A stretch of 64,000 nucleotides of DNA from an uncultured Acidimicrobiaceae bacterium (GTDB taxonomy: Bacteria > Actinomycetota > Acidimicrobiia > Spongiisociales > UBA5794). The notes under the pieces were generated by a model. That model was given only the letters and a program-made list of their open reading frames with translations. It searched no databases and was not told the DNA's origin. Location: the NCBI GenBank assembly GCA_964505525.1, contig CAZDIQ010000001.1:5544-69543 (forward strand), given 5' to 3'. A program made the position numbers and the translations under genes. This document shows positions 3,001-49,536 of this stretch, in pieces; the stretch's first letter is position 1, and each line of letters starts with the position of its first letter.

Positions 3001-3013
3001 GACCAGATGCTAG

Positions 3014-3256
3014 TCAGACGGCATCCGGGAGAGCGTCGTACACGGCCCGCGCTTCCTCCTCGGTCATCAACCCGAGATGCTGCGCCGACGTGATCGTCGC
3101 GTTCGACACGTTGTTCACCACGTCAGCGCCGCCGTCCGTCTCCGGATACTGCGGGGTGTCCCGATACACGAACTGGGCTGCCGCCGCAGCACCAAACTCC
3201 TCCAACGTGAACTCGCCGTCATGCAACCGTTCGAGCAGAGCGAGGAGCTTGTTCAC
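3014..3256 (-). CDS. hypothetical small acidic protein (80 aa); possible immunity/chaperone for adjacent toxin proteins
   Basis: ORF with non-Arg-rich composition, sandwiched between the MazF-like and polyvalent genes and 3 nt upstream of the polyvalent gene. No recognisable motif. Confidence 0.35.
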   Translation of the reverse strand: MNKLLALLERLHDGEFTLEEFGAAAAAQFVYRDTPQYPETDGGADVVNNVSNATITSAQHLGLMTEEEARAVYDALPDAV

Positions 3257-6900: not shown

Positions 6901-8228
6901 AGCGACCCTCCCGCCGACCACGGCACGATCGGTTCCGGGACGATCATCGCCATCCCGGCCGTCGGGTCATCAGTCAGCTTCAACCCGCAATGCACACACG
7001 GCACGAAGCCACGGTCGTTCCCCCCGAACTCGGCGTACAGGTCCGAACGAGCCCGGTTCCGGGCAGTGACCGACGGTGCCCGCGTCGACCCGGACAACTC
7101 GACCCGGCCAGCACGGCCCCGCTTGTACCGGGCACGCTTCTGAGCGGCACCGAACACGGCCCGCGGCGAATAACCCTGCGCGGTGAGAACCGTGTCCGAG
7201 CCGCGCATCGTCGCTCGTAGCTGCTGGATCAGCTGACCACGAGTCATCGAATGACGACCGACAATCCCTTCACCGCGGGCGTAGGCGAGCAAGGTCGAAC
7301 GGTTCATCTGATCGAACCGGTCCGGGCAGTCCGGGCCTCCCGCCAACCCTTGCAGGCAGAGGGCGCGCAGCACCGCGGCTTGCAGTTCGCCACGGTTCAT
7401 CGTCGACCGGCCGTCGATCGACAAGGTTTGCGCCTTCGCTGTCAGTTCGGCCTTCGTCGCGCCGATCACGCGGCGGGCCTCGGAGCCTTCGACGTAGCCA
7501 AGCTCGCACCGGCAGTTCACCCTCAACTCGAACGGCAGCAGCGGGTCGCCGGGGTAGCGGGCCTGGTAGCCGCCGACTGTGAACGTCGACCCGAACGGGA
7601 CCGTTTCCTGGTCGGCTGCGGCATGCTCGAACCTGACCCGGATATCTCGTTGCGTGATCCAACGCAACGCCGCGGGCTGCGCGTCCTGCATCCCTTCGAA
7701 CAGGCCGCCGTTCGCTGCGCCCTGCAACTCGGTGCGAGCCACCTGATCGGCGATCGCGTCAGTGAACGGCCCGTCCGTCGTCAGTCCCTCGCGGACCGAG
7801 GCAGCATCCCATGCCAGCCCGGACTGTTCACGAGCAGCGATCCATTGATCGAGTCGCAACCGGATCGACGGGGCATAGTCGATCAGGCCAAGCAGTTCCG
7901 ACGCGGCATGACCTACCCGCAAACCGAGCACACCGAGCACACCGAACGTGAGCACCCCGGCCATCAGACCGTCCAAGGTGGCGTCGCCCATCTCGTCGGA
8001 GATGTGCTCGGTGATGATCTCCTCCCACTCGTCGTCGGTGATCAGCTGCTCGTCGTTCGCTGCGGCCGTGAGCGTGCCATGCCGGGCAGCGATCCGCGGG
8101 GCCACCAGGTCCGCGGCAGCCTGGTAGGCGCGCCGGAACGCTTCGAGGCCGACCAGCCATGTCTCGTCGTCGAGCAGCTGGACTGGTTCGGAGTCGACCG
8201 CTTCGGCCAAGTCCATCGCCACGGTCAC
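3990..8228 (-). CDS. MuF-like minor capsid protein / polymorphic toxin with C-terminal ADP-ribosyltransferase (exoenzyme R-S-E type) domain
   Basis: 1412-aa ORF immediately downstream of portal. 'ELRVNCRCELGYV' matches the MuF/SPP1 gp7 CRC signature. Two Cys-rich 'YVPCxHCG...NLxPSCxxC' modules. C-terminal ~200 aa carry 'YRG' (Arg), 'GFGSWS' (STS-like) and 'THESETI' (ExE), the ordered catalytic triad of C3/Vip2-type ARTs. Repeated 'VPRDxTGKWCKGAQCN' and 'PGQKAA(A/W/Y)TKK' motifs. Confidence 0.65.
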   Translation of the reverse strand: MTVAMDLAEAVDSEPVQLLDDETWLVGLEAFRRAYQAAADLVAPRIAARHGTLTAAANDEQLITDDEWEEIITEHISDEMGDATLDGLMAGVLTFGVLGVLGLRVGHAASELLGLIDYAPSIRLRLDQWIAAREQSGLAWDAASVREGLTTDGPFTDAIADQVARTELQGAANGGLFEGMQDAQPAALRWITQRDIRVRFEHAAADQETVPFGSTFTVGGYQARYPGDPLLPFELRVNCRCELGYVEGSEARRVIGATKAELTAKAQTLSIDGRSTMNRGELQAAVLRALCLQGLAGGPDCPDRFDQMNRSTLLAYARGEGIVGRHSMTRGQLIQQLRATMRGSDTVLTAQGYSPRAVFGAAQKRARYKRGRAGRVELSGSTRAPSVTARNRARSDLYAEFGGNDRGFVPCVHCGLKLTDDPTAGMAMIVPEPIVPWSAGGSLAAGNLLPSCTSCFRAASGLVAAAGWVDGQTVSARAYGWDMIGGGDFALTRDDLPRLTTLVGPLTVNYVDDLDYTQYVVNGIPVDSDTIQPISLPGEVLIASTVSVCARCGLPEVPSEFAAGIAAVPRDQTGKWCKGAQCNEGQMLETMDAAEFAKKSPQARVSAPAEWFASEAELAETQALSNQKARDVPQPSAEKIAHNKEQAQKAKEGKGRAGGDNRGSAATRRARGEALFDEYGGNKRGYVPCTHCGIKTSPKGRGGHASMEQDKILTLNEGGSYGGIKSFPNLIPSCSGCNKHRGEKPYPVRPSWEAAGLSVIRVRFAALTEAEATDRIDDEVVAFPLGWDDPDLDVFDQPVQGLLATRRVSPFFGAYDQWIVGGEVVDPDHIYDLDDPLVASASMMCPDCGGWIEAVTASAAAVPRDPTGKWCKGAQCNGQLEMDMSPMTPGQKAAATKKKNAAMAAAAKQAAYDAEQEKLAKAAELEEMKQFHISSKIDGGRTLDKPDVDGASDATVDAYLAKNAPKLTPSTPDERRDAMRAMNDQHIADRKVLNEQLGYNDGHAAGPRESRRAVLRETGERRPTGGPNPTGARVMFTDDQIDAMSDEKRAALIAHHSGKSVDQVKASHTPEERASLAKFHEADYQANVSALKASGYQDEQIPRSHLATAKMQNGVASGFPAKPTAVPVVAAPGAVGKPANWSSMSPGQKAAWTKKNNPKQPNKFETPKPPEWDSWTSGQKAAYTKGQNLKGAKTSGPAGAHEVHTYTGGAARESFMNSVKAAGPLKGEDVGKGHHSQRQSAQSAKLTTDQRYAIDSYGGSGYGPMNGTMKRGESHGPAVTKKVADMKSAYKGPAATPAPRQMYRGKGSGSGSTMQELDLKVGDVYVDKGFGSWSVDLNIAESFSDHGNRRVIVKLTDSRRVPSLVSYTHESETIMPANSKYRVTMISDHITPGDSYGNQGRHYRYMEVELVD

Positions 8229-14925: not shown

Positions 14926-16340
14926 GCTGCAACTCGATTCTTGCGTGTCCAGGCGGCCTTGCGGCCAGCGGTCCAGGTGTCGAAGTCGGCGGGCTTCTCG
15001 CCAGCGACGGTGACCGGAGCGGTCACGGCGACGGTGTGCTCCGGGCAGTGCGGCGTGTATCCCTTCGTGTCGGCGGTGGCGTACACGTCGTTGCGACAGC
15101 CCGACTGTTCGCACTGGTGAGCGACGAACGGGATCAGGTTCCCGTCGGCGTCGACCGGGGCCAGCTTGACCAGCTTGCATTCGGTCTGCTTGCCCCACTT
15201 CGGGTCGTCGATGTGGTTCTTCACCTTGCCGGTCCAACGGACCCGGTCGCCGACCCTGACGCCCCACAGGTCGTTGCCTGAACCGAACGTCGTGACGACG
15301 CCTTCGTCGGTCTGGACCGTGACCCGCTTCGAGGCGCCGTACGCCGTTTCGACGGTCAGTTCCACGATCACTTCGCCGATGACGACGATCTTCTCGCCGA
15401 CCTGGCCGATGAAGTTCTGGGGCCGTTCGGCCTTCGTCTCGGCCTCCTCGGTGTCCTTCCGCCACACGAACGGCAGAGCAGCCAGCAGGCCCGTCATGCG
15501 ACGGGAAACCTTCCCGGCGCTCAATGCCAGTTTGGCGTTGTAGATGAAGTCGCTGTCGTTCGCCGACTTCGTTTCCAGCCAGGCGACGACCTGATCGGCG
15601 TCGGCCCGACCGGCCGAGAGGTCGAAGCCATGAAACACTTCCGCCATCCGCTTCGCGGTCGTGCCGTAAGCGATCTCATCGGCCCGGTCACGGGTCGGCC
15701 AACCCTCGCTGGTCTTCGTGAAACCGTGGATGCGGGTCACCGCGGCGGCGATCGCGAGGTACTCCATCGGAAGAACGACGGGCTTCGCATGCCCCTGGAA
15801 GTCGTCGTCGTCGAAGAACCCGACGACCGCTTCACGGAGCCACAGGACGTTGGCCGGGTCGACACCGAGGAACTCCAACACGCAGGTCGTGCCGACAGCG
15901 AGCCACCGTTCGTCGTCGTGGCGGAACACGATCGTCGTGTTCCGTTTGACGTTGATCCCGCAGTGATCGCACAGCGAACCACGGAACCGGAACTCGTCCG
16001 GCAGGGCGATCTCGTCGGTGATCGCGCCGGGAAACAAGGCGACCCAGGCTTCACCGTCGACCAGAGTGTGGTCCAGGACGGCGATCGGAGCCCATCCGGC
16101 GTGGCGGGCTTCGAAGCCGTGGACGGTGACCTCGTCGTACTCGGTCCAGGTGCGCTTGATCCCGGTGACTTCGTCGTGTTCCTCGACGGTGACGATCTCG
16201 CCGAAGGTGACGGTGGCGGCCGGGGCGCCCAGTTTGGCGAGCCGCTTGTTCATCTTGACCAGCTTCTCGTTCACCTTCGCCGTGGCATCCGTGCGGATGC
16301 CGCGGACGGTGTGATCCACGGGGAACAGTTCAATCGTCAT
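14922..16340 (-). CDS. hypothetical protein (about 473 aa), Cys cluster, C-terminal 'TWTAGRKAAWTRKNRVAA' motif
   Basis: Long clean ORF preceded by conserved leader copy A (SD GAGAGGAAG). 'CDHCGINV...TTCVLEF' Cys motif. C-terminus shares the PGQKAA-TKK motif family. Confidence 0.5.
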   Translation of the reverse strand: MTIELFPVDHTVRGIRTDATAKVNEKLVKMNKRLAKLGAPAATVTFGEIVTVEEHDEVTGIKRTWTEYDEVTVHGFEARHAGWAPIAVLDHTLVDGEAWVALFPGAITDEIALPDEFRFRGSLCDHCGINVKRNTTIVFRHDDERWLAVGTTCVLEFLGVDPANVLWLREAVVGFFDDDDFQGHAKPVVLPMEYLAIAAAVTRIHGFTKTSEGWPTRDRADEIAYGTTAKRMAEVFHGFDLSAGRADADQVVAWLETKSANDSDFIYNAKLALSAGKVSRRMTGLLAALPFVWRKDTEEAETKAERPQNFIGQVGEKIVVIGEVIVELTVETAYGASKRVTVQTDEGVVTTFGSGNDLWGVRVGDRVRWTGKVKNHIDDPKWGKQTECKLVKLAPVDADGNLIPFVAHQCEQSGCRNDVYATADTKGYTPHCPEHTVAVTAPVTVAGEKPADFDTWTAGRKAAWTRKNRVAA

Positions 16341-16346
16341 GGGCAC

Positions 16347-16407
16347 TTCCTCTCTCGATCCGACAAAGTAAGTGTACCACGATCTGCTACAGAACGCAAC
16401 GGTCGGG
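16347..16407 (-). promoter_or_regulatory. conserved promoter/leader module copy A
   Basis: About 80% identical over 55 bp to 19680..19740; contains GTAcCA-N5-TGCTAC and SD GAGAGGAAG. Confidence 0.55.
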
Positions 16408-16770
16408 TCAGCGTTTCACGGCACCCGGTAGCTGTTCGATGTCGAGCAGGTCACGCCACACCCGGTGGAGAATCTGAGCGAACCCTCTCGAATGCTTCCG
16501 GAGGACCGCATCCTTGAAGTTGTCGTAGTCGATGTCCGCGGCTAGCTCGACGAGAGCAGCCTGCCACACGGTCCGTGGGATCGTAATGCGGTAGCGGTAG
16601 TCGGACTGACCGGGCTTCGATTCGACGATCTCGTCATCCCGATCGTCGAGCGCCTCGGTCTGCGTGAGAAAGACCAGGTCGGTGTACGACCTGGCCCGCA
16701 CCATGATGAGGTCAGGGTCGTCGCGGTGCTCGACCGCCGAGTACATGCCGAGAGTAGTGATGATCCACAT
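16408..16770 (-). CDS. hypothetical protein (120 aa)
   Basis: ORF between clamp gene and 473-aa gene. Confidence 0.4.
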   Translation of the reverse strand: MWIITTLGMYSAVEHRDDPDLIMVRARSYTDLVFLTQTEALDDRDDEIVESKPGQSDYRYRITIPRTVWQAALVELAADIDYDNFKDAVLRKHSRGFAQILHRVWRDLLDIEQLPGAVKR

Positions 16771-16783
16771 GTGTTTGAGCCTC

Positions 16784-17839
16784 TCAGTTCGGGCACCGGA
16801 CAGGCATCTGCAACAGAGTCCAGCCGGGGGCAGAGGGGTGGATCAGGACGGGCTTCAACTCGTCGAACACGGTGACCGTCACCGTGTCAGCGTCAGCCTC
16901 GGCCAGTACCTGACGGAGCAGTTTCGGGTTCAACGACACGGTCGGAACCTCCCGGTCAGTCTCAACGGGGATACCGGACTTCGATCCGGCGACGTCGCGC
17001 ATCGTGACCACCAGTTCGTCGTCAACGACAACGAACCTGGCCGACGCCCCTCCGGCCAGTTCCAGCTTGCCGAGACGGGCAGCGAGTTGACGACGGTCGA
17101 CCGTGAACGACGAACCGTACCCGGTCGGGATCAAGGCCTGCCAACTCGGGAACTCGCCGATCGTCTGACGGACCACAACAGACGTCGTGGCGTTGAAGAA
17201 GTGCACGGTGTCATTCGTTGCGAAGTCGACGTTCAGGTCGTCCCCGTCGAACATGGCGGCCACGATCTGGACACCGTCGCTGGGCAGCAGGACCGGCCTG
17301 CCGAAGTCGACGACATCGTCAACAACCATCAGACGGTACGAGTCCGTCGCGACCGCACGACCGGCGTCGAACAGCACCGACGTCAAGACAGCACGAGTCG
17401 GGTCAATCGACGCGGCCGTCGCGGCGAGACGGGCAGCCCGAGCGAACCCGGTCGAATCGACCTCAATGGGATCGTTCCGGTCCGGGATGACATACACCGG
17501 GTTCTCCATGAACGACAGCGAGTATTCCAAGTCGCCTGCGACCATGACGACCTCGTCGGACGTCACGTCGAGCGAGACACGTCCGGCGTGAGCCATCGCC
17601 CTCGCGAACCGCTTCAACAGCCCGGCGTCGACTGTGATCGTCGTCGCCTTCTTCCCGGCGACCGGGATCTTCGCCGACGCGGTCGTCATGTAGTCGGTCG
17701 CCGTGACCGTAACCCGTTGGTCACGGAACGCGAGAGTGATCGAACCGGCAGACGCCCTGCCGACAAGTGTCACCGCCTTAGCGAACGCGGTTGCGTCGGT
17801 AGTGAACGTGGCCGTCTTCACGGCGAGAGAAGTAGACAT
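16784..17839 (-). CDS. dnaN: DNA polymerase III beta sliding clamp (DnaN) homolog
   Basis: 'DSYRLMVV', 'FPSWQALIP', 'LNPKLLRQVL', 'KPVLIHP' correspond to conserved DnaN blocks. Start set at ATG (MSTSLAV) with AAAGGA SD. Confidence 0.65.
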   Translation of the reverse strand: MSTSLAVKTATFTTDATAFAKAVTLVGRASAGSITLAFRDQRVTVTATDYMTTASAKIPVAGKKATTITVDAGLLKRFARAMAHAGRVSLDVTSDEVVMVAGDLEYSLSFMENPVYVIPDRNDPIEVDSTGFARAARLAATAASIDPTRAVLTSVLFDAGRAVATDSYRLMVVDDVVDFGRPVLLPSDGVQIVAAMFDGDDLNVDFATNDTVHFFNATTSVVVRQTIGEFPSWQALIPTGYGSSFTVDRRQLAARLGKLELAGGASARFVVVDDELVVTMRDVAGSKSGIPVETDREVPTVSLNPKLLRQVLAEADADTVTVTVFDELKPVLIHPSAPGWTLLQMPVRCPN

Positions 17840-17853
17840 GGGTTGGGGTCCTT

Positions 17854-18657
17854 TCATTGCATGGATTGAGCTTCGGTGAGAAGCGGACCGTCGTAACCGA
17901 GTTCGGTCAACGTGTCCGACATTCTTCGAGTGAGATCGAGCAGCGCCGCAACGGATCGCTTCTGTCCGGTCATGGCTTTCGCCTTGTCGATCCACGGTTC
18001 AGGTTGCAACGCGAACCCGAACTGCATCTCGGCAGACTTGGCCTGTTCGGCGGCGATCTCGTCGACCAGTTTCCGGAAACGGACGGCCCCCATCCGAGGG
18101 TTCGCCAGCCACGCTTTCAAGCCGACCGACTGGTGGGCCGAGTCGAGTCGACGTAGCTCCAACGCTGCGGCAGGAGTGACCGCCTCAGCGTCGATCGCGG
18201 CTTGAACGTCGGAACCGAGTTCGAGCAGGTCGAGTCGCCACCGGACACGGAACTCGGCGACCCCCGCGATCGCAGCGATCTGTTCGACGGTCTGCCCGGC
18301 GTCGCGTCGTTTGCCGTAGGCGCGGGCTTCCTCCATGATCGACAAGTTCACGCGGCCGGTGTTCTCGGCGAGCATCAAATCGGCCTCGGCCTGTTCGTCG
18401 ACGTCGCGGATCGTCGCTTCGATCGTTACCCGGCCGAGCAGCTGATAGGCGCGCCAGCGGCGTTCCCCGGCGATCAGCCGGAAGCGGCCGTCGTCGAGTG
18501 GGCGCACCGCGATCGGTTCGGCGAGTCCGACCGCGGCGATCGACGCGGCCAACTGTTCGAGTTCGGCCAGGTCGAACACCTTCCGGTCGTTCGTGCCGGT
18601 GACGATCTGGTCGACCGGGATCGTGTCGACGTTCACTGGACGGTCACCATTCGGCAC
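17854..18657 (-). CDS. parB: ParB-like partition/nuclease-domain protein
   Basis: 'FRLIAGERRWRA' matches the ParB-N GERRxRA box, plus 'NLSIMEEARAY' in an HTH region. Confidence 0.6.
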   Translation of the reverse strand: MPNGDRPVNVDTIPVDQIVTGTNDRKVFDLAELEQLAASIAAVGLAEPIAVRPLDDGRFRLIAGERRWRAYQLLGRVTIEATIRDVDEQAEADLMLAENTGRVNLSIMEEARAYGKRRDAGQTVEQIAAIAGVAEFRVRWRLDLLELGSDVQAAIDAEAVTPAAALELRRLDSAHQSVGLKAWLANPRMGAVRFRKLVDEIAAEQAKSAEMQFGFALQPEPWIDKAKAMTGQKRSVAALLDLTRRMSDTLTELGYDGPLLTEAQSMQ

Positions 18658-19679: not shown

Positions 19680-19740
19680 TCCTTCTCTCTCGATCCGACA
19701 AGTTCAGTGTAGCAGGTCATGCTACGTAACGCAAATCGTG
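19680..19740 (-). promoter_or_regulatory. conserved promoter/leader module copy B
   Basis: Contains perfect GTAGCA-ggtca-TGCTAC (19709..19725) and SD GAAGGAG. Confidence 0.55.
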
Positions 19741-19822
19741 ATGCGAGAGAGCCCGCCCGGCCTGCCGGGTACAAACCGGCAACCGGACGGGCTCGACTCC
19801 CAGCGGACTGGGAGGAAGTTGC

Positions 19823-21583: not shown

Positions 21584-22161
21584 CAGTTCACCGTCGAGCG
21601 GACCGTCACGCCGTCGATGCCGTCCAACTGGTCGAGGATCTCCGACACCCGATCCCACTCGTCGAGGTCGACCGACACGAGCACATGGGCACGCTTCAAC
21701 GGTTTCAAGTCGACCGACTTCGGCTTCTCGGCTGGCTCGTCGTCGGCTTCGGGCAGCAGGTCAGCGATCACCGCCGACAACGAGTCCGACAAGGTGCCCT
21801 GATCGACAAGTTCGTTCAACAGGTCCGAGTTGATCTCGGCCATGCTTCCGATCGGGTCCATCAACGCCAGCATCTCATTCTCCTCAGCCTCCGACAGTTC
21901 CACCCAAGCAACCGGGATCGGACCGTCCTGTGCGAGCCCGACACGCATGTGGCCGTCCACGACCAAGCCTGTCGTCCGGTTCACGATGACCGGCGCGACC
22001 CAGCCGACATCATCCAGCACCGACGTCATCGCAGCCTTCTGCTGATCGCCGTGCACCCGCGGGTTCCGCGGGTTGGCTTCCAACTCCGACGCGGTGATCT
22101 CGCCGTACTCGACGATCCGATTCCGCCACTTGGCGTCAACCTTCGGTTTGCGTACTGCCAT
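21583..22161 (-). CDS. ParB/Srx-like nuclease-domain protein
   Basis: 'VVDGHMRVGLA' resembles the ParB-N DGHHR core; acidic C-terminus. Confidence 0.45.
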   Translation of the reverse strand: MAVRKPKVDAKWRNRIVEYGEITASELEANPRNPRVHGDQQKAAMTSVLDDVGWVAPVIVNRTTGLVVDGHMRVGLAQDGPIPVAWVELSEAEENEMLALMDPIGSMAEINSDLLNELVDQGTLSDSLSAVIADLLPEADDEPAEKPKSVDLKPLKRAHVLVSVDLDEWDRVSEILDQLDGIDGVTVRSTVN

Positions 22162-22945
22162 CGCCCCATCTCACTTCTCTCATGGCGGCCTCATCACCGG
22201 CCGCCGCCTTGTATCGCTCCGCCAACTCGTACTGCTCCTGATGCCGGTCATGCCCGTACGTCTGCGTCAACGGCTGAGGATGCCACAGATGCCAGCAGGC
22301 GCCTTCAAGCCGGGTGTGCGGCCCCCACAGGGTGTCGACGGACAGACCGAACGACGTGTCGTCAGAACCCCACTTCGCGAACCGTTCGTCGTAGCCGGTC
22401 ACCGTCGCGAACGCGCCGCGCGGTACGACGACCATCCCGGACCAGGCGACGTTCTCGCCCACCCATTCGCAGTCCTCATCCGGCCACCGGATCGGCCTCG
22501 ACGGATGATCGCGCAGGACCCGTTCCGAAGCTCGACGGTTCAGCTTGACGTAGAAGCGGGGCATCACCCACGACGCCGCCCCGGACAGGACGAGGTCGGC
22601 GGCATGAACAATCCAATCCGGGTCGAACACGGTGTCCGCGTCGGCGATGACGAACACGTCACGCGCCGCCCTCGACGCCGCAAGGTTGATCGCCTTCGGA
22701 TGATTGAAGTCACCAGGATCTTGCCGACGCCCACCGCCGTCATCGGCGACGATCACTTCGACCGACGGCAACAGCGCCGCCCATCGCCGCGCCAGCCAAC
22801 GCCACGACGTAGTGCGATGCCCGCGATCCGGACGGTACGGGACCAGCACCGAGACATGAGGCTGGCTCACGCTACGCCCTTCGCCTGATTCCACCATTCC
22901 GGATGAGGACGGTCCGGGGAGTTCCGCCAGAACGTCGCCGCGCAC
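22136..22945 (-). CDS. family-2 glycosyltransferase
   Basis: 'VIVADDGGG', 'IADADTV', 'GYDERFAKWGSDDTSF' are GT-A signatures. Confidence 0.6.
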   Translation of the reverse strand: MRGDVLAELPGPSSSGMVESGEGRSVSQPHVSVLVPYRPDRGHRTTSWRWLARRWAALLPSVEVIVADDGGGRRQDPGDFNHPKAINLAASRAARDVFVIADADTVFDPDWIVHAADLVLSGAASWVMPRFYVKLNRRASERVLRDHPSRPIRWPDEDCEWVGENVAWSGMVVVPRGAFATVTGYDERFAKWGSDDTSFGLSVDTLWGPHTRLEGACWHLWHPQPLTQTYGHDRHQEQYELAERYKAAAGDEAAMREVRWGDGSTQTEG

Positions 22946-24516: not shown

Positions 24517-24604
24517 GTCTCCTTCGTCGGATTCCGGTCGGACGACAGGACCGTAGCACGAGTTGCGACATGTAGCATCCGGTGCTGCTACCGTCGCGTC
24601 GGTC
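24517..24604. promoter_or_regulatory. divergent promoter region between clamp-like operon and terS/terL with two GTAGCA palindromic sites
   Basis: GTAGCA-cgagt-TGCGAC (24553..24569) and GTAGCA-N8-TGCTAC (24572..24591). Confidence 0.5.
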
Positions 24605-25216
24605 ATGGCGAACAGGAAACGGAAGACGAAGGCGGAGCTTCAAGCCGAGGCCAAAGCCGCCGAGCAGGAACGGGTCGTGGTCTGGGCCGAACAGTTCGGG
24701 GCACCGATCGCGATTCTGCAAGGCTGGAACATCGACGACGGGACATGGCATCCTCAGTCACCGGTCGGGCTCATGTTGCAGGCCATCGCCTCACGAGGGG
24801 CGCATATCACGACCGCCGCACAACTCGGAGGGCTGCGGAACATCATGCAGCTGATCGCCCGTGGTCACGAGTACATGGTCGACGCCGCCGAAGACCGGGC
24901 CTACATCCCGATCGACGTGCGTGTGTTCGTCGACCTGGTCGTTCAGATTGAGCAGGCCGAAGCGTTGATCGAAGTCGAACTCGTGAAGACGGTCCGGGAC
25001 GGGGCGAAGACCGACCCGAAGATCGCGTTGGCGATGCTGTCGCGACGGTTCGGTCAACGCTGGCGTGAACAGCAGGCCATCTTCACCGCCGACGAACACG
25101 ACGAACGTGACGCCGCCGTGTCGAAGGTGCTCGCGAACCCGGACGCGGCGTTGGCGCTCGCCGAGATCGCCCACGAAGTCGAAGACACGGTGCAGGAGCA
25201 CGAACGCGGTAGCTGA
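24605..25216 (+). CDS. terS: terminase small subunit (putative)
   Basis: Basic N-terminus 'MANRKRKTKAEL', about 200 aa, stop overlaps terL start (TGATG). Confidence 0.5.
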   Translation: MANRKRKTKAELQAEAKAAEQERVVVWAEQFGAPIAILQGWNIDDGTWHPQSPVGLMLQAIASRGAHITTAAQLGGLRNIMQLIARGHEYMVDAAEDRAYIPIDVRVFVDLVVQIEQAEALIEVELVKTVRDGAKTDPKIALAMLSRRFGQRWREQQAIFTADEHDERDAAVSKVLANPDAALALAEIAHEVEDTVQEHERGS

Positions 25217-26742
25217 TGCGTACCCACGACCTGGCCTCACGGGCGTGGAAGGCAATGCCCGACACGATGGGCCGCCGACTGTCCGACGGCACCTACACGG
25301 CACCGGAGCACGTCAAGCTCATCTCATGGCTGCTGACGTTGAACGCGAACCGGTACGTCCCGCGGCTCGGGATCTCGATGCCTCCGGGTTCAGGGAAGTC
25401 GGAGGTCATCGACTACTACGACTCGATCCACCTGTTGGAACACGACCCGCGACGAAGGATCATTCTCGCCTCCTACTCCGGTGAACTGGCCGAGGAACAA
25501 GGCAAACGGGTCCGCAACACGATCGAGTCGAACTATGACCTGCTCAACCTCCGGCTCATGCAAGACAGCCGGGCCGCTGACCGGTGGCGTACCACGATGG
25601 GCGGCGGGATGTGGACCGTCGGCATCGGCGGTTCGATCACCGGTCGCCGCGCGTCGAACTTGAAGATCGACGACCCGCACAAGAACTTCGCCGAAGCCAT
25701 GTCGATCAAGAACCAGGTCGACACCTGGAACTGGTACGGGTCCGTGGCCCGCACCCGCATGCTGCCCCGCTCGTCGCTGGCAGTCGTCCAAACCCGGTGG
25801 GCTGAGGGTGACCTGATCGGCCGGTTGAAGTCGAACGACGAAGGCAAAGACGACTGGCTGTTCGTGTCGCTCCCGGCGATCGCCGAGAAAGACGAGACGA
25901 TCGTCACCGTCCTCGGCGACTGGTATTACAAGCTCACCGCGATGGGCGTCACCCGGTTCCCGGTATGGGAACGGGAGAAAGGTCAAGCCCTGTGGCCCGA
26001 GTTGGAACCGGGGGTGCCGTGGTTCGACGAAACGGAGTACGCCGAGATCCGCGCCGACGTCGGCGAAGTCGTCTGGGCTGGGCTGTACCAGCAACGCCCG
26101 TCGCCCGCCGAGGGCAACCTGTTCAAACGATACGACTGGCGGCGTCTCGACGGGCCGATGCCAGCAGGCACCTACACGTACGTTCGGCGTTGGGACTTGG
26201 CGTCAGTCGAAGGGGGCGGTGACTGGACGGCCGGGATGCTCATGGCGATCAATCACGAGACACGGCACATCTACATCATCGACGCCCGCCGTGCCCGGCT
26301 CGGCCCGACCGAAGTCGAAGCGTTCGTGCACATGACCGCTGTGGAGGACCGCGACAACTACGGCACCGTTCTCACCCGCGTTGAACGCGAACCGGGATCG
26401 TCCGGCAAGAACGTCGAGACGAACTACATGGCGAACGTCCTCGCCGGGTTCCCCGCCAAGTTCCTGCCGTCAACCGGAGCGAAGGAGGTTCGAGCCCTGC
26501 CGTTGTCCGGTCAGGTAGGTGCCCGCAACGTGTACCTGTGCCGACGGGTCCGAGCGAACGGGGAGACGACGATCCCGGACTGGTGGGAGTGGCTGATCGA
26601 GGAAGCGGCCGTGTTCCCGAACGGCACACACGACGACCTCATCGACGTCGCCTCACTCGCCTACGTCGATCTGATCGAGGAACAACCGCGCCGGTCACGG
26701 ACGAAGGTCGGGTCGTCGGCCCGCAAGCAACTCGGGTTCTGA
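25216..26742 (+). CDS. terL: terminase large subunit
   Basis: Walker A 'GISMPPGSGKS', Walker B 'LKIDDPH', 'LYQQRP', C-terminal nuclease 'THDDLIDVASLA'. Confidence 0.9.
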   Translation: MRTHDLASRAWKAMPDTMGRRLSDGTYTAPEHVKLISWLLTLNANRYVPRLGISMPPGSGKSEVIDYYDSIHLLEHDPRRRIILASYSGELAEEQGKRVRNTIESNYDLLNLRLMQDSRAADRWRTTMGGGMWTVGIGGSITGRRASNLKIDDPHKNFAEAMSIKNQVDTWNWYGSVARTRMLPRSSLAVVQTRWAEGDLIGRLKSNDEGKDDWLFVSLPAIAEKDETIVTVLGDWYYKLTAMGVTRFPVWEREKGQALWPELEPGVPWFDETEYAEIRADVGEVVWAGLYQQRPSPAEGNLFKRYDWRRLDGPMPAGTYTYVRRWDLASVEGGGDWTAGMLMAINHETRHIYIIDARRARLGPTEVEAFVHMTAVEDRDNYGTVLTRVEREPGSSGKNVETNYMANVLAGFPAKFLPSTGAKEVRALPLSGQVGARNVYLCRRVRANGETTIPDWWEWLIEEAAVFPNGTHDDLIDVASLAYVDLIEEQPRRSRTKVGSSARKQLGF

Positions 26743-27096: not shown

Positions 27097-27167
27097 TGTG
27101 CACCCCCTCAGAATCCATGTCGTTCACCATGCTACATGCGGTAGCGGTTCATGGCAATGGGGATTCG

Positions 27168-27485
27168 TCAGTACGACCAGCCGGGCTTGTCGACCACGTC
27201 CGCCCACGCCCGCGCGCCGTGGCGTTGACCGGCGCCGAGGCCGAGGATGCGGGAACAGTCCACGCAGCGCCGGTCGATCGGTGGAGGCCACGTCGCGGTG
27301 ATCGACATGTCCGGCTGCCCGGCGATGTCCCACAGCAACGGGAACGCGTCGGAGCCGCACACGGTGCGCTGCTCGCGGCGCGACCTGTCCCAGTCGATCG
27401 GTGGCCGCAGCGACGCGTGGATCGTCGTATGGGACGTCAACGCCAGACACACATGGTCGTCGAGGATCGGAAACAACAGGCCCAT
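27168..27485 (-). CDS. hypothetical protein (105 aa)
   Basis: Low-Arg ORF coupled 3 nt after upstream gene. Confidence 0.3.
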   Translation of the reverse strand: MGLLFPILDDHVCLALTSHTTIHASLRPPIDWDRSRREQRTVCGSDAFPLLWDIAGQPDMSITATWPPPIDRRCVDCSRILGLGAGQRHGARAWADVVDKPGWSY

Positions 27486-27500
27486 GTTTCACGTGGCACA
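27485..27500. promoter_or_regulatory. parS-like site TGTTTCACGTGGCACA (14/16 to TGTTTCACGTGAAACA)
   Basis: Direct comparison to the canonical chromosomal parS. Confidence 0.4.
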
Positions 27501-27944
27501 TGAAGGGGCAGGGGGTGCCGACGGTGGGCTGGACGGTGGCGGCCAGTTCGACGGGCGACGCGGGGACCGCGGGTCGATCGCCCAACCCAACCATCCGGAC
27601 GTGACCCCCAACTCGTCTGGAGGGTCAAGGTTACGCAACGTCGGTTCGGCCAGGCCGTTGCCGTCATCGTCGATCTGCTGCACTTGGATCGTCACGGACC
27701 CGGACGCCCGCCACTCGTTGCGTTGCGTTGTGAACGGGACGCCGTGCTCGTCCTCGTTCAACGTGCCGATCGTGACGAGCGTCTCCTCCAACCCGAAGTC
27801 GAGCACCTTGTACCGGGACAAGCCGTAGACGAGATGATCTTCGCGCCACAGGTTCTCGAAGGTGACCTTGCCGTCGACGGACCGGAGCGGGATGTCGATG
27901 TGTGGCAGGTTCAATCGCTGTACACGGCGGGTCGGTTTAGCCAT
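27489..27944 (-). CDS. hypothetical protein (151 aa)
   Basis: ORF. Confidence 0.4.
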   Translation of the reverse strand: MAKPTRRVQRLNLPHIDIPLRSVDGKVTFENLWREDHLVYGLSRYKVLDFGLEETLVTIGTLNEDEHGVPFTTQRNEWRASGSVTIQVQQIDDDGNGLAEPTLRNLDPPDELGVTSGWLGWAIDPRSPRRPSNWPPPSSPPSAPPAPSCAT

Positions 27945-28833: not shown

Positions 28834-30183
28834 TCAGAACACTTCGTCCTGATTGTGCGGCCGGTAGTCGCTCGCCGGGACGCCGCCGTATCGGGCACCG
28901 AACAGCGTCGAGCCGTAACGGAGCGGGTCGTTGCGGTCCTCGACCGACCAAGGCAGCCGTTTGTCGGCACCGCGGATCACAGTCGACGGCAGCCAGATGT
29001 CCGAGTCGCGGGGGACACGGAACTGTTTGACGGTCATCTCGACCCCGGTGCCGCCAGGGACGATCCTGGTCGACGTGTCGTCGTCGGGCGGATGAATCGA
29101 GAAACCGACGTCAGGCCAGTCAACCCATCGTTCGGAGCCTCCCGGCGCGCCGTGGTCACCGCGGGAGAAGTGGGCTTCCAACGCGATCGCGAAGCCGTAC
29201 CGGGCCGACAAGGTATTCAGCGTGGCATGCAACGCGAGGGCGGCTGTCTCATAGTTCTCGCCGGGTTTCATCATCGACATGTACTTGATCGGCCCCATGA
29301 CAAGCACCTGCGGCTGGGACCGTTGGATCGCGGCTTCGAGCGCGGCGAGTCCTTCCGGGGATCGGATGTCGATCCCGCCAGGCCGGTGCAGCAACGCGGG
29401 CCGTCGAAGGTCGAACACGGAGTGCGAGTCGACTGAGCGTTGCAGCCCGAACAGGATGGTCCGAGTCGACGACGTGATATCCCAAGCCCCCGCTTCTAGC
29501 TCGACGATCAAGGCGCGGCGTTCCTGTTCGGTTCGTTGCCCCGTCCACGGGTGCACGCCATTCTCGGCGCAGTACCCGATCTGGCGGAGCAGCGTCGACT
29601 TGCCGATCCCTGCCTTCGCGACGACGAGCAGGCGTTGCCCGCGGCGCAGGAGGCCACGCGCGATCCACGGTTGGACTTCGTCTCGGTCTTCGCCGGAGTC
29701 CAAGGTCGCCATGTCGTCGTAGTAGCCGTGGATGATCGAGTCGGCGTGACGGCGTAACAGTTCTGACTCGGCCAACTGATCCGACACGGTGCGGGCCACG
29801 TCGACGGCTTGTTCTTGTGCGTATCCGGCGTCGGTGAGACGTGCCCCGATGACGATGAGCGCCCGCGACTTCGAATGGTCGAGCACGACCTGCGCGTATC
29901 GGCCGACGTTCGACACCGCTGGCGTTTCGTTCATCAGTTCCGTCAGCCAAACGATCGCGTCGTGCTGGTCCGGGATGCCAGCCGCGACGACAACCTGGTC
30001 CACTCGTTCGCCTGCGGCGGTGAGCGTGGCGATCGCATGGAACGCTGCCTGGTGTTGCGGGGCGTAGAAGTCGGCTGACGTCAACGCTGCTGTCGCTGTC
30101 TCGCAGGCTTCTCGTGCTATCAGGCACGACCCGATGACGGCACGTTCGGCGTTGAGGTCGTGCGGTGGGATGCGGTCAGCCAT
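28834..30183 (-). CDS. dnaB: DnaB-like replicative helicase
   Basis: N-terminal 'IPPHDLNAERAVIGSCLI' (DnaB N domain), Walker A 'VVAKAGIGKST', RecA-fold C-terminal. Confidence 0.65.
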   Translation of the reverse strand: MADRIPPHDLNAERAVIGSCLIAREACETATAALTSADFYAPQHQAAFHAIATLTAAGERVDQVVVAAGIPDQHDAIVWLTELMNETPAVSNVGRYAQVVLDHSKSRALIVIGARLTDAGYAQEQAVDVARTVSDQLAESELLRRHADSIIHGYYDDMATLDSGEDRDEVQPWIARGLLRRGQRLLVVAKAGIGKSTLLRQIGYCAENGVHPWTGQRTEQERRALIVELEAGAWDITSSTRTILFGLQRSVDSHSVFDLRRPALLHRPGGIDIRSPEGLAALEAAIQRSQPQVLVMGPIKYMSMMKPGENYETAALALHATLNTLSARYGFAIALEAHFSRGDHGAPGGSERWVDWPDVGFSIHPPDDDTSTRIVPGGTGVEMTVKQFRVPRDSDIWLPSTVIRGADKRLPWSVEDRNDPLRYGSTLFGARYGGVPASDYRPHNQDEVF

Positions 30184-30709
30184 CCGCGGGAACGAGTTCG
30201 ATCGTCAGCGGGCCGTGCACGATCCGATGCTCGATGCCGACCATCACCGAGATGAACTTCGCGAGGTCGATCGCTTCGAGCCGTCCGTCGAGTTCCAGGT
30301 CGTTCCTGATCCCTGCGATGTCGTCGGCCAGCTGGGAGGCAGCGAGCGCCGGGTCGGACTGGACGATGCGCTTGTATCGCTCCTCCTGCTCGATCAGCAG
30401 GTTGTCCCGGTGGTCGGATTCCATCACCCGGATCAGCAGATCGACTCGCCTCGCTCGGCGTGCCCCCATGTCGGCGGCATGCTCGATGATCGCTGACGGC
30501 AAGATGTCCTGCGGGGACGTGGTCAGCATCATCGCCTTGATCGCGGTCATCACGTCATCGACGATGATCCGGCCGTGCTTCGTCCCGGCGATCAGATGCT
30601 GCCACACCTTGCGTTGCAAGTCCTTGCGGGCCGGGTCCAACCAGCTGGGCCGGTTGAGCATCACAGCGTACGCCTGGACGGACTGGTCGATCACGAGTGT
30701 GTCATTCAT
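30176..30709 (-). CDS. hypothetical protein (177 aa)
   Basis: ORF between initiator and helicase; could be a helicase loader. Confidence 0.35.
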   Translation of the reverse strand: MNDTLVIDQSVQAYAVMLNRPSWLDPARKDLQRKVWQHLIAGTKHGRIIVDDVMTAIKAMMLTTSPQDILPSAIIEHAADMGARRARRVDLLIRVMESDHRDNLLIEQEERYKRIVQSDPALAASQLADDIAGIRNDLELDGRLEAIDLAKFISVMVGIEHRIVHGPLTIELVPADG

Positions 30710-31787
30710 CGTTGGCCTCCGGAAGCTGATGGAAGCTAGAGCTTCGCGCTCGTTCCGACATCACTTGCCGCAATGCCCGAACCTTCGCCACCTGCTCTAC
30801 GGACACGTCAGCGATGATCGCCACGGTCGCATCGTCGCCTCCGCGGGCGATCTGGTTGTCGGCGGTGATGAACCACTTCTCGCCGCGGGCCTGGGCTTTG
30901 TCTCGCACGATCTGCCAGGCCCCGTCGAAGTCGCCGCGGGCGATCGCGGCGTCCATCTCGTCGACCTGGGCCATCTCGATCGCCTTGTCGATCCCGGCCG
31001 CCGTGATCGCCGCGACCTCAACCGAACCAATCTCGTCGGTCCAGCGACGATCGTTCAGCCACGTCGAAGCATGCGGCCGTTTCGAGTGCGGGGTCTTCGC
31101 CTGCTCCCACCAGCGGCCCCGCGCGATGGCCGCGTCGATGATCACCTGCGGGTCCACCTTGTCCTTCATCGCCTTCGCCCACGCGCGCTGAGCCGGAGCC
31201 TTACCATCCTTCGTCCGCGGATAGATCGACCAGAACTCATCAAACCGATCAGCAACTTCAACACGCTCCACCGCAGGTGGAGCAAGCCCCAAGTCCAACG
31301 AAGGAGCCGCGGTGTTGTTCTCCTGATCTTCTTCTGTTGTTCTAGTAGAAGCGGTCACCACATGACCAGGCCCTGGTCGTGCCATGACCGGGGCCTGGTC
31401 ACCACATGACCGGGCTTCGTCGACCCTGGTCACCACATGACCAGGGTCGCCTTCCCATACAGCGTGGTCGAACCAGATGACCCATCGCTTGCCGCCCTCG
31501 CCCTGCGGTATCTGAATCGTCTCTAACTCGATGATGCCCGCAGTGACCAGCGTGGCGACAGCCGCGCTCACCTTGCCCGACGAGATCTTCAATCTGGCGG
31601 CGATGGAGTTCCTGGTGACGTTCTCCTCGTACCCGTCAGCGTGCGACGCGAGCCACACAGCGATACGGAACGCGTACGGATCGAGCGACATGTCCTCGGT
31701 CCGCCAATTGGGGGTGCTCGTCCAGCCTCGACGGCCCTTCGATCGGATAGCACCTGGCGTAGAGGCGGGGCGGATGTTAGAGTTCAT
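30702..31787 (-). CDS. putative replication initiator (winged-HTH) containing iterons
   Basis: N-terminal 'NSIAARLKISSGKVSAAVATLVTAGIIE' wHTH; gene sits upstream of dnaB-like; the coding sequence contains 4-5 GGTCACCACATGACC repeats. Confidence 0.5.
   Translation of the reverse strand: MNSNIRPASTPGAIRSKGRRGWTSTPNWRTEDMSLDPYAFRIAVWLASHADGYEENVTRNSIAARLKISSGKVSAAVATLVTAGIIELETIQIPQGEGGKRWVIWFDHAVWEGDPGHVVTRVDEARSCGDQAPVMARPGPGHVVTASTRTTEEDQENNTAAPSLDLGLAPPAVERVEVADRFDEFWSIYPRTKDGKAPAQRAWAKAMKDKVDPQVIIDAAIARGRWWEQAKTPHSKRPHASTWLNDRRWTDEIGSVEVAAITAAGIDKAIEMAQVDEMDAAIARGDFDGAWQIVRDKAQARGEKWFITADNQIARGGDDATVAIIADVSVEQVAKVRALRQVMSERARSSSFHQLPEANDE
31354..31483. repeat. iteron array: GGTCA-N5-TGACC palindromes at 31354, 31376, 31398, 31429 (+ variant 31467)
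   Basis: Three exact copies of GGTCACCACATGACC, one GGTCGTGCCATGACC, one GGTCGAACCAGATGACC; first three spaced 22 bp. Confidence 0.7.
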
Positions 31788-48720: not shown

Positions 48721-49536
48721 TCAGAACCCTTGCACCGGGGCCGGGTCGTAGATGAGCGGCGGCTGAACATCACCGTCAATTTCGATCGCTGCGCGGGGAC
48801 GGTCCCGGTAGAACCAGCGGTGGAACAGTTCGTCGATCGTTTCGTCGTCGAACTGGCCCCACTGCCGCCAGTGTGCACCGTACATCGGGTCGAGGTCGGT
48901 GGCCTGATAGGCGGCAGCACCGTTACGGATCTTCGACAGGACCTGCTCGACCGAACGGTACGGGAAGTGACGGACGACGAGCGCCGGATTGAACAACGGC
49001 TGCCACTGGTCGTAGACAGCGCCGTGGTTGCCCATCTCGATCACCAGAGACTCGTGCCAGCGCACCGCGACCTTCGGGAACTTCCCTGGAGTGGTGCGCC
49101 GCCAACCGATGCGGAGCACCGGGTCGGGTTCGTCCGGGTCTTCGGCGGTGCACACATGGTCGTACAAGTCGGCGGGCACCACCATGTACGGGTTCGGGAT
49201 GCCAGCCAACGTGTCCGCGATCCGAGGAGCGAACGGCGAGTACCAGATCTCGTCGGCGTCGAACGGGACGATCCAGTCGGCGTCGAACATGTCGTGAGCC
49301 ATCCGGGCGAGGCCGGTCATCTTCGTCGACTGGTAGTAGCCGACTTCGTCGTCAAGCAGCTGCATCGACGGGATGTTGAGGTCGGCCAACGTTTCTTGGA
49401 TGATCTCCCCGGTGCCGTCGGTCGACATGTTGTCGGCGACGATCAACGCGTCGACCTGCGTCGCCATGTGCCGGATCGTCGTCGCGATGACATCGGCTTC
49501 ATCCTTCACCATCGTGCAACCGACTGTCGTCGTCAT
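48721..49536 (-). CDS. family-2 glycosyltransferase
   Basis: 'TMVKDEADVIATTIRHMATQVDALIVADNMSTDGTGEI'. Confidence 0.6.
   Translation of the reverse strand: MTTTVGCTMVKDEADVIATTIRHMATQVDALIVADNMSTDGTGEIIQETLADLNIPSMQLLDDEVGYYQSTKMTGLARMAHDMFDADWIVPFDADEIWYSPFAPRIADTLAGIPNPYMVVPADLYDHVCTAEDPDEPDPVLRIGWRRTTPGKFPKVAVRWHESLVIEMGNHGAVYDQWQPLFNPALVVRHFPYRSVEQVLSKIRNGAAAYQATDLDPMYGAHWRQWGQFDDETIDELFHRWFYRDRPRAAIEIDGDVQPPLIYDPAPVQGF

What the first reader, a model, noticed from the sequence alone, without database searches (positions are those of the whole stretch)
27485..27500. Near-consensus parS site (TGTTTCACGTGGCACA)
It matches the canonical chromosomal parS TGTTTCACGTGAAACA at 14/16 positions. 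The chance expectation is roughly 0.03 per 64 kb, and lower in GC-rich DNA. It is embedded in a longer near-palindrome CATGTTTCACGTGGCACATG, which straddles the 3-nt junction between genes 27489..27944 and 27168..27485. A partial copy GTTTCACGGCAC occurs at 16413..16424 inside leader copy A. A ParB homolog is encoded at 17854..18657. Together these hint at partition-type maintenance, either an extrachromosomal prophage or hijacking of host ParAB, or at ParB-mediated regulation.
Basis: partly seen in the sequence, partly recalled or inferred. Interest (0 to 1): 0.6.

Follow-up and report, generated by a model that had tools for sequence, protein, structure and literature searches.

The report
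Lone near-consensus parS in a phage
A 16-base sequence that almost matches the bacterial chromosome "centromere" (parS) really does sit next to the replication and DNA-packaging genes of an uncultured ~100-kb phage and is rarer than chance predicts, but the phage's own ParB-like protein is not built to read it, so it can only work, if it works at all, by recruiting the host's ParB.

Summary
The sequence is confirmed. TGTTTCACGTGGCACA lies at 27485-27500 and matches canonical parS at 14/16. It matches the natural variant TGTTYCACGTGRAACA at 15/16. It is the only such site in about 83 kb of this phage.

The phage-partition reading fails:
- There is no ParA gene.
- The ParB homolog (17854-18657, minus strand) is an orphan CTPase-type ParB without the ParA-binding motif.
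- Its recognition helix (GVAEFRVRWRLDLL) lacks the parS-contacting K171, R173 and N178.
- Its gene is 8.8 kb from the site.

The site is also not conserved at the same position in relatives. It sits at a junction made by a lineage-specific gene insertion, on a remnant of the phage's own promoter motif.

Three things keep a host-ParB reading alive:
- A syntenic relative without the ParB module (L158) carries TGTTTCATGTGGAACA 43 nt upstream of terS.
- Many unrelated IMG/VR phages keep a perfect parS just upstream of a homologous terL, with no ParB gene nearby.
- The site lies 0.74 kb from terL and 3.9 kb from the likely origin.

Verdict: probably a weak host-type ParB loading site (about 0.4). 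A chance match is nearly as likely (about 0.4). Nothing here is experimentally shown.

The parts
27485..27500 (.). Near-consensus parS, TGTTTCACGTGGCACA. One perfect half-site (TGTTTCAC). The other half, read on the opposite strand, is TGTGCCAC.
   Evidence: It matches the strict consensus at 14/16 and TGTTYCACGTGRAACA at 15/16. It is the only such site in the window and in 19 kb of flanking genome.
27483..27502 (.). Extended near-palindrome CATGTTTCACGTGGCACATG.
   Evidence: As RNA it has no significant structure (z = -0.83).
27489..27944 (-). 151-aa gene of unknown function. Its non-conserved proline-rich tail (...PSCAT*) and its TGA stop lie inside the site.
   Evidence: Homologs at 52%, 37% and 32% identity in L011, L014 and L158. 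The tail is not conserved.
27168..27485 (-). 105-aa gene whose ATG overlaps the site. It is a lineage-specific insertion.
   Evidence: It is absent from L011, L014, L016 and L158. It is a real family with 20 representatives. Its best homolog sits in an unrelated context with no parS.
27129..27157 (-). Promoter-like site TTGCCA-17-TAGCAT upstream of the 72-aa gene. It is a paralog of the sequence from which the parS-like site seems to derive.
24605..26742 (+). terS (24605-25216) and terL (25216-26742). They form a plus-strand island between minus-strand blocks. The site is 743 nt beyond the terL stop.
28834..30183 (-). DnaB-type helicase, in the same minus-strand replication operon as the site.
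30702..31787 (-). Replication-initiator gene. It contains 22-bp iterons at 31353-31445, the probable origin, 3.9 kb from the site.
   Evidence: (phrog_270).
17854..18657 (-). Orphan ParB/Noc-family CTPase with a divergent helix-turn-helix. It is considered here and rejected as the reader of the site.

Best explanation
The site is a solitary, slightly degenerate copy of the universal chromosomal parS. The phage's own ParB does not read it. If it acts, it acts as a nucleation site where the host's chromosomal ParB dimer binds, closes as a CTP-dependent clamp and slides onto neighbouring phage DNA. That would cover the junction between the replication operon (initiator/iterons, DnaB) and the terS-terL packaging island.

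Shown here: the sequence, its rarity, its position, the unsuitability of the phage ParB, and the absence of ParA.

Inferred: that host ParB binds, and any downstream effect. Candidate effects are local silencing or timing of nearby genes, SMC or ParA-dependent positioning of phage DNA, help in packaging, and titration of host ParB.

The sequence seems to have arisen in the former intergenic spacer behind the 151-aa gene. Its sources would be a copy of the phage promoter motif (TGTAGCATG...GTGAAC) and the stop/start junction of an inserted gene.
For: 1. The match is rare. Expectation is 0.003-0.02 per 64 kb for 14/16 and 0.001-0.005 for 15/16 to TGTTYCACGTGRAACA, in a genome that under-represents CACGTG 3.6-fold.

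2. One half-site is perfect. In the other half, one of the two deviations (T to C at the fifth base) is a natural variant: GTTCCAC and GTTTCAC are both used by ParBs (PMC7022226).

3. There is an independent replicate. L158 is syntenic (TerL 65%, SNF2 53%) and shows no ParB/DnaN module in the 21.5-kb stretch read. It carries TGTTTCATGTGGAACA in the 475-nt divergent intergenic region, 43 nt upstream of the terS ATG. This is the only site at 2 or fewer mismatches in 1.385 Mb of non-redundant comparison loci. The expectation in the ~110 kb of close relatives is about 0.006. The L158 site and the window site share 14/16 bases plus the next T.

4. There is a precedent. 211 IMG/VR stretches were fetched solely for carrying a parS match; the first 120 required a perfect TGTTYCACGTGRAACA, and the second pattern also allowed two near-variants, which account for 14 of 150 sites. 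Of the 211, 34 (24 sequence clusters, GC 34-62%) carry a TerL homologous to this phage's. In 6 clusters the parS is within 200 nt upstream of terL (P about 2e-6 under uniform placement). There the parS is an invariant island in an otherwise unalignable spacer. No ParB gene is found in the first 120 of those stretches, the only ones tested. So a host-type parS kept by phages without a local ParB is real.

5. The site is near the origin, 3.9 kb from the iterons, as chromosomal parS sites are.
Against: - It is not conserved at the orthologous position. L011 (TerL 88%), L014 (68%), L016/L017 (66%) and the Desertimonas provirus L019 (50%) have no site at 3 or fewer mismatches to the variant consensus in the stretches read, which reach up to 10 kb on each side of terL where the contig allows.
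- There is a single copy in about 83 kb.
- The T to G change falls in the conserved GTT of one half-site.
- ChIP data summarised in PMC7022226 show no half-site binding for Corynebacterium or Streptomyces ParB, and the likely host is an actinobacterium.
- The site overlaps an ORF end and a start codon, like the background perfect matches found inside coding DNA in IMG/VR.
The L158 P-value ranges from 0.006 to 0.08 depending on which loci count as relatives.
- The host is unknown.
Confidence: 0.42

Rival explanations
1. The match is fortuitous and has no function. On this reading the 16-mer is a by-product of local history. A copy of the phage's own promoter motif (CATGTAGCATGGTGAACGACATGG) decayed after a small gene was inserted behind it. 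It then fused with the TGA-AAC-ATG stop/start junction and happened to land two bases from parS.
For: - The site region aligns with the orthologous promoter-bearing spacer of L011 (CCCCTTC-TGT--CA-G, 14 of 18 bases) and with the paralogous promoter upstream of the 72-aa gene.
- The 105-aa gene is an insertion absent from relatives.
- Four of the 16 positions are fixed by the stop and start codons.
- The site is not conserved in four relatives.
- It is a single copy.
- Background perfect parS matches inside coding DNA exist in IMG/VR.
- The window was chosen for this match, which is a selection effect.
Against: - The changes from the promoter-like ancestor run almost all toward the parS consensus. 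They include a 1-nt deletion that restores the CACGTG spacing.
- A second near-consensus site exists in relative L158, in a non-coding regulatory spacer next to terS.
- Both sites lie within 0.8 kb of the terminase island.
- CACGTG is otherwise avoided in this genome.
Confidence: 0.38
2. The site is the loading site of the phage's own orphan ParB. That protein would then slide as a CTP clamp and regulate or organise phage DNA, in the manner of KorB or Noc.
For: The phage ParB keeps the CTP-binding boxes GERRWRA and ENTGR and a ParB-type helix-turn-helix. It scores above the TIGR00180 cut-off (92.6 against 58.45 bits). The family it belongs to is the one that reads parS-like palindromes.
Against: - The recognition helix is GVAEFRVRWRLDLL where canonical ParB has GK(S/E)RxxVANxLRLL. 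By alignment, K171, R173, N178 and R181 are replaced. PMC7383237 reports R173 as invariant in parS-specific variants.
- The altered helix is conserved across the whole phage clade, yet clade members' contigs carry no parS-like site.
- L158 has a parS-like site but no ParB module in the stretch read.
- The parB gene is 8.8 kb from the site.
- No shared palindrome was found near the clade's parB genes.
Confidence: 0.06
3. The palindrome is an operator or recognition site for some other protein, such as TerS, the replication initiator or a host transcription factor with a CACGTG core. Alternatively it is a translational-coupling RNA element.
For: It lies at the position of an ancestral promoter, close to terS/terL and the replication genes. 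In L158 the related site lies about 15 nt upstream of the terS promoter-like element.
Against: - There is no second copy of the motif in 83 kb, which is unlike an operator set.
- RNA folding is not better than shuffles (z = -0.83).
- Rfam finds nothing.
- Identity to the universal parS, rather than to any phage-specific motif, is unexplained on this reading.
Confidence: 0.08

Closest known systems
Chromosomal parS / ParB-CTP nucleation sites (TGTTNCACGTGAAACA; Bacillus, Caulobacter, Streptomyces, Pseudomonas)
   Same: A 16-bp palindrome that matches at 14/16 (15/16 allowing the natural T/C and A/G variants). One half-site is perfect. It is origin-proximal and may lie inside coding DNA, as some chromosomal sites do.
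   Different: It is on a phage and is a single copy. One deviation falls in the conserved GTT. No binding data exist. No cognate ParA/ParB operon is next to it.
Phage and plasmid parABS cassettes (P1; mycobacteriophage RedRock and other Cluster A phages, PMC7157519)
   Same: A phage genome that carries both a ParB-family gene and a centromere-like sequence.
   Different: RedRock-type cassettes have parA plus parB, flanked by parS-L and parS-R arrays of eight 8-bp direct repeats, and they replace the integrase. Here there is no parA. The ParB lacks the ParA-binding motif. The site is a single host-type palindrome 8.8 kb from parB.
Orphan ParB-CTPase proteins on mobile elements (Noc, KorB; survey in PMC12704722)
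   Same: The phage ParB fits the survey's definition. It scores on TIGR00180, keeps the CTPase boxes, is encoded outside a parAB operon, has no ParA-binding motif and sits on a mobile element.
   Different: Its DNA target is unknown. It is always paired with a DnaN-like clamp gene. It is not the 5mYOX-activating phage ParB of PMC13229309, which lacks a DNA-binding domain.
Half-parS binding by Pseudomonas aeruginosa ParB (reviewed in PMC7022226)
   Same: One perfect heptamer (GTTTCAC) is enough for detectable ParB occupancy in some species.
   Different: Such binding gives narrow peaks without spreading. It was not seen for Corynebacterium or Streptomyces ParB, which are the closest models for the probable host.

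Membership tests
Chromosomal-type parS (ParB nucleation site) | 16-bp palindrome within 1-2 mismatches of TGTTNCACGTGAAACA | tested here: met
   14/16 to the strict consensus and 15/16 to TGTTYCACGTGRAACA.
Chromosomal-type parS (ParB nucleation site) | Specific binding and CTP-dependent clamp loading by a ParB | not testable with these tools
   Needs EMSA, BLI or ChIP. The host is unknown.
Chromosomal-type parS (ParB nucleation site) | Location near the replication origin, usually as several copies | tested here: inconclusive
   The site is 3.9 kb from the 22-bp iterons in the initiator gene. It is the only copy in about 83 kb.
Chromosomal-type parS (ParB nucleation site) | Conservation in related genomes | tested here: inconclusive
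   The site is absent at the orthologous position and in the stretches read around terL (up to 10 kb each side) in L011, L014, L016/17 and L019. Relative L158 has a 14/16 site at a different position, 43 nt upstream of terS.
Phage/plasmid parABS partition cassette (P1, RedRock type) | ParA ATPase gene adjacent to parB | tested here: not met
   No ParA-type family appears in the Pfam scans of the window genes or in the precomputed calls for the flanks. In all clade members the neighbours of parB are a DnaN-like clamp and small ORFs.
Phage/plasmid parABS partition cassette (P1, RedRock type) | ParB with an N-terminal ParA-interaction motif (L/F/I)G(K/R)G(L/F/I) | tested here: not met
   0 of 16 clade members have it. 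4 of 6 chromosomal comparators do. The motif definition is from PMC12704722.
Phage/plasmid parABS partition cassette (P1, RedRock type) | Centromere repeats flanking or next to the par genes | tested here: not met
   The site is 8.8 kb from parB. No repeat arrays or shared palindromes were found around parB.
ParB/Noc CTPase family (for gene 17854-18657) | ParB_N plus ParB helix-turn-helix domains, with the GERRxRA and ENxxR boxes | tested here: met
   PF02195 at 5e-19 and PF17762 at 2e-6. TIGR00180 at 92.6 bits against a 58.45 cut-off. GERRWRA and ENTGR are present.
ParB/Noc CTPase family (for gene 17854-18657) | parS-contacting residues of canonical ParB (G170, K171, S172, R173, N178; R173 invariant in parS binders) | tested here: not met
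   Gapless alignments to Thermus Spo0J, Myxococcus ParB and Noc place G-V-A-E...W at these positions. Residue roles are from PMC7383237.
ParB/Noc CTPase family (for gene 17854-18657) | C-terminal dimerisation domain (PF23552) | tested here: not met
   It is not detected in the phage clade but is present in most chromosomal hits. A divergent C-terminal region does exist, so dimerisation itself is untested.

The most novel reading that the evidence does not exclude
Phages of several unrelated lineages deliberately keep a host-type parS next to their terminase genes while encoding no ParB able to read it. The purpose would be to load the host's ParB-CTP clamp onto phage DNA. Possible roles are silencing or timing of the packaging genes, a host cofactor for packaging initiation (as IHF is at lambda cos), riding the host segregation machinery, or titrating ParB away from the host origin. 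On this reading, the window's site and the one in L158 are slightly degenerate members of that class.
Probability: 0.3. Interest if true: 0.8.

Novelty: new variant of a known kind. Interest (0 to 1): 0.45.

Why it matters
parS/ParB is known as a system that a replicon encodes for itself. A phage that carries only the host's centromere sequence, and relies on the host's ParB, would be a cheap way to hijack chromosome-organising machinery.

The comparison set adds something independent of this window. A perfect parS is held invariant just upstream of terL in at least six sequence-unrelated IMG/VR phage clusters. I found no paper describing this. That makes the idea directly testable by ParB binding, ChIP during infection and site mutation.

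The work also separates out a conserved phage clade of orphan ParB CTPases. These have a rewritten recognition helix and are always paired with a sliding-clamp gene. Their DNA target and role are unknown.

Tried and rejected
- Cultured-phage database. A megablast of the region and a tblastn of the 151-aa protein found nothing, and the nearest TerL was 34% identical.
- IMG/VR searches with the 151-aa, 105-aa and DnaB proteins found no relatives.
- The large protein database returned only the 151-aa protein itself.
- RNA hairpin or translational-coupling element. The fold is not better than shuffles (z = -0.83). Rfam finds nothing in the window or in seven comparison loci.
- A family of degenerate parS-like sites in the window. 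Hits at 3-4 mismatches look like codon-driven GC-rich noise.
- The partial copy at 16413. It is not part of the repeated leader and counts are at chance level.
- A cognate palindrome for the phage ParB. No perfect 7-nt-arm palindrome recurs in the window. No arm is shared across six ParB loci beyond GC-rich codon motifs. No local repeats lie around parB.
- Positional conservation via homologs of the 105-aa gene. The best homolog lies in an unrelated context.
- tRNA genes as a host clue. There are none.
- Literature searches for parS on phages used by host ParB, or for parS next to terminase genes. Nothing relevant was found.
- Limits reached. 

Full report
**What the window is.** The window is a GC-rich (64%) stretch of an uncultured tailed phage.
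- Exact copies of its proteins occur on an NCBI contig of 100,320 bp and on Logan assemblies.
- Nothing similar exists among cultured phages; the nearest TerL is 34% identical.
- Around the finding the genes run on the minus strand as one replication operon. The order is a replication initiator (30702-31787, phrog_270) containing 22-bp iterons at 31353-31445, a 177-aa gene, DnaB (28834-30183), a 227-aa gene, a 151-aa gene, a 105-aa gene and a 72-aa gene.
- This operon converges on a plus-strand island of terS (24605-25216) and terL (25216-26742).
- The ParB homolog (17854-18657, minus strand) lies in another operon, directly upstream of a DnaN-like clamp gene. That operon is bracketed by two copies of a promoter/leader element.
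- The best host hint is a related provirus in Desertimonas flava (Acidimicrobiia), with TerL 50% and ParB 46% identical.

- TGTTTCACGTGGCACA is at 27485-27500, two mismatches from TGTTTCACGTGAAACA. It is the only hit at up to 3 mismatches.
- It spans the last four codons and stop of the 151-aa gene, a 3-nt spacer, and the first base of the 105-aa gene's ATG.
- ParBs use both GTTTCAC and GTTCCAC half-sites (PMC7022226). The fairer consensus is therefore TGTTYCACGTGRAACA, from which the site differs at one base, with expectation 0.001-0.005.
- CACGTG is itself under-represented, 6 copies against 21.8 expected, in a genome that avoids many 6-bp palindromes.
- Another 19 kb of the same genome beyond both window edges has no further site.
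- The 'partial copy' at 16413 is a lone heptamer plus five bases with a gap. It lies inside a gene's 3' end and is absent from the second leader copy. I regard it as noise.

- The protein is a true ParB/Noc-family member. It has ParB_N and the ParB helix-turn-helix, scores 92.6 bits on TIGR00180, and keeps the GERRWRA and ENTGR boxes.
- It lacks the N-terminal ParA-interaction motif, as do all 16 members of its clade (motif definition from PMC12704722).
- Where canonical ParBs have GK(S/E)RxxVANxLRLLxLP, it has GVAEFRVRWRLDLLELG in gapless alignments to Thermus Spo0J, Myxococcus ParB and Noc. This places V, E, W and D at the positions of K171, R173, N178 and R181.
- PMC7383237 lists K171, S172, R173 and N178 among the parS contacts. 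It reports R173 as invariant among parS-specific variants.
- The rewritten helix is conserved across the phage clade (P0005-P0026). Those genes always sit beside a DnaN-like clamp gene, never beside parA, and their contigs carry no parS-like site.
- I found no ParA-type gene and no integrase in about 83 kb.
- RedRock-type phage parABS cassettes have parA, parB and flanking arrays of 8-bp repeats (PMC7157519). None of that is present here.

**History of the site.**
- The 151-aa gene has homologs in relatives: 52% in L011, 37% in L014, 32% in L158. Its proline-rich tail, which contains the site, is not conserved.
- The 105-aa gene is missing from those relatives. It is a real small-gene family, and its best homolog sits in an unrelated context.
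- In L011 the 151-aa homolog is followed by a promoter-bearing spacer. The window's site region aligns with it (CCCCTTC[A/G]TGT..CA.G). It also aligns with the paralogous promoter now upstream of the 72-aa gene, CATGTAGCATGGTGAACGACATGG against CATGTGCCACG-TGAAAC--ATGG.
- So the 16-mer occupies a former regulatory spacer. It looks like a modified copy of the phage's own promoter motif joined to a stop/start junction.
- This history can be read two ways. It is a mundane origin. Yet nearly all the changes from the promoter-like sequence move toward the parS consensus.

**Conservation.**
- No relative has a site at the orthologous position or in the stretches read around terL, which reach up to 10 kb each side where the contig allows. 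This holds for L011 (TerL 88%), L014 (68%), L016/17 (66%) and L019 (50%).
- One syntenic relative differs. L158 has TerL 65%, SNF2 helicase 53% and replication initiator 37% identical, and no ParB/DnaN module in the stretch read.
- L158 carries TGTTTCATGTGGAACA in a 475-nt divergent intergenic region, 43 nt upstream of the terS start and about 15 nt upstream of its promoter-like element.
- That is the only site at 2 or fewer mismatches in 1.385 Mb of non-redundant comparison loci.
- The expectation is about 0.006 for the ~110 kb of close relatives and about 0.08 for everything scanned.

**A broader pattern found on the way.**
Together they returned 211 stretches.
- None of the first 120 encodes a ParB-family protein.
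- 34 stretches, falling into 24 nucleotide-level clusters with GC 34-62%, carry a TerL homologous to this phage's (23-40% identity).
- The parS lies upstream of terL in 18 of the 24 clusters. It lies within 200 nt of the terL start in 6 clusters (binomial P about 2e-6 under uniform placement).
- In those spacers the parS is an invariant block among unalignable, indel-rich flanks. That is the signature of selection on the site.
- Two of these loci have five perfect copies within 1 kb.
- Perfect matches downstream of terL lie inside coding DNA and look like background.
- Full-text searches found no description of parS beside terminase genes.
- Caveats. These phages are not close relatives of the window phage. 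TerL was the only probe that could have hit. The pattern is rare among the 80 closest IMG/VR TerL relatives, where only L158 shows it.

**Weighing.**
- For function through host ParB: the rarity of the match, the replicate in L158, the proximity of both sites to the terminase island (0.74 kb and 0.04 kb), the origin-proximal position, and the demonstrated existence of selected host-type parS in phages with no local ParB.
- Against: no positional conservation, a single copy, a mismatch in the conserved GTT, overlap with coding sequence, no half-site binding by actinobacterial ParBs (PMC7022226), an unknown host, and the selection effect of how the window was chosen.
- My estimates are about 0.42 for a host-ParB loading site, probably weak; 0.38 for a fortuitous match; 0.06 for the phage ParB as reader; and 0.08 for another protein or an RNA role.
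- No binding, spreading or phenotype has been shown. Every downstream consequence is inference.

**Novelty and interest.** If functional, the site is a new variant of a known kind: a chromosomal-type centromere carried by a phage for the host's ParB, with no ParA and no matching ParB. On its own, a single degenerate site is of moderate interest. The terminase-adjacent parS pattern and the orphan ParB-clamp gene pair are the more surprising leads, and both are directly testable.

Noticed in passing
IMG/VR loci L034-L153 and L238-L328; examples L080:10808-10823, L093:4677-4692, L097:5557-5572, L268:11243-11258, L047:4391-4406, L039:5592-5607, L141:10535-11462, L071:2657-3444: A perfect host-type parS (TGTTYCACGTGRAACA) sits in the non-coding spacer just upstream of terL in at least 6 sequence-unrelated phage clusters. 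Two loci have 5 copies. The parS is an invariant island in otherwise unalignable DNA. No ParB gene was found in the 120 stretches that were tested. No paper describing this was found.
   Followed up: partly
L158:9223-9238 (IMGVR_UViG_3300007517_000007): A syntenic relative of the window phage, without the ParB/DnaN module in the stretch read, has TGTTTCATGTGGAACA 43 nt upstream of the terS ATG. The site lies in a 475-nt divergent intergenic region that the other relatives lack.
   Followed up: partly
window 16784-18657 (-); also L005, L009, L010, L001, L019: A conserved phage clade of orphan ParB CTPases has a rewritten recognition helix (GVAEFRVxWRLDLL) and no ParA-binding motif. Its gene is always directly upstream of a DnaN-like sliding-clamp gene, and a DUF5131 gene is often nearby. 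The DNA target and role are unknown.
   Followed up: partly
whole window: The window shows strong avoidance of many 6-bp palindromes. CTCGAG, GAGCTC, GGATCC, GAATTC, CTGCAG, CCATGG, GCCGGC and CCCGGG have 0 copies against 7-71 expected. GGGCCC, TGCGCA, TGGCCA, AGCGCT and AGGCCT have 1-2 copies. CACGTG has 6 against 22 expected. This is a restriction-avoidance signature.
   Followed up: no
window 16350-16407 (-) and 19685-19745 (-); related motif at 24560-24580 (+) and 27129-27157 (-): A promoter/leader element is repeated (TTGCGT-N17-TACACT followed by TTGTCGGATCGAGAGAG), and its two copies bracket the ParB-DnaN operon. A shared motif, (A/G)TGTAGCATG, recurs upstream of terS, of the 72-aa gene and in relative L011.
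   Followed up: partly
window 31353-31445, inside gene 30702-31787 (-): Three to four 22-bp iterons (GGTCACCACATGACCGGGCCCT) lie inside the replication-initiator gene and mark the probable phage origin. L158 has analogous 22-bp iterons at 15628-15708.
   Followed up: partly
L156:1218-4573 (beyond the right edge of the window); L154 (beyond the left edge): The same genome encodes Ku and an ATP-dependent DNA ligase, as mycobacteriophages Omega and Corndog are known to (from my own knowledge). The left flank has an AAA_24 ATPase. The precomputed gene calls for the roughly 19 kb of extra sequence show no integrase or ParA.
   Followed up: no
window 43-8228 (-), 22136-22945 (-), 48721-53687 (-): Two giant proteins carry toxin-type domains: a 985-aa protein with a Zeta toxin domain and a 1412-aa protein with ADP-ribosyltransferase and HNH domains. 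At least six glycosyltransferase-family genes are also present. These may serve virion or DNA glycosylation.
   Followed up: no
window 24605-26742 (+): terS-terL form a two-gene plus-strand island embedded between long minus-strand blocks. This arrangement is conserved in all relatives examined (L011, L014, L016, L158).
   Followed up: no
window 16312-16327: TGATCCACGGGGAACA has 2 mismatches to TGTTYCACGTGRAACA. It lies in the 5' end of the 474-aa gene next to leader A. Its individual expectation is about 0.06 per window, so I judge it to be chance.
   Followed up: partly
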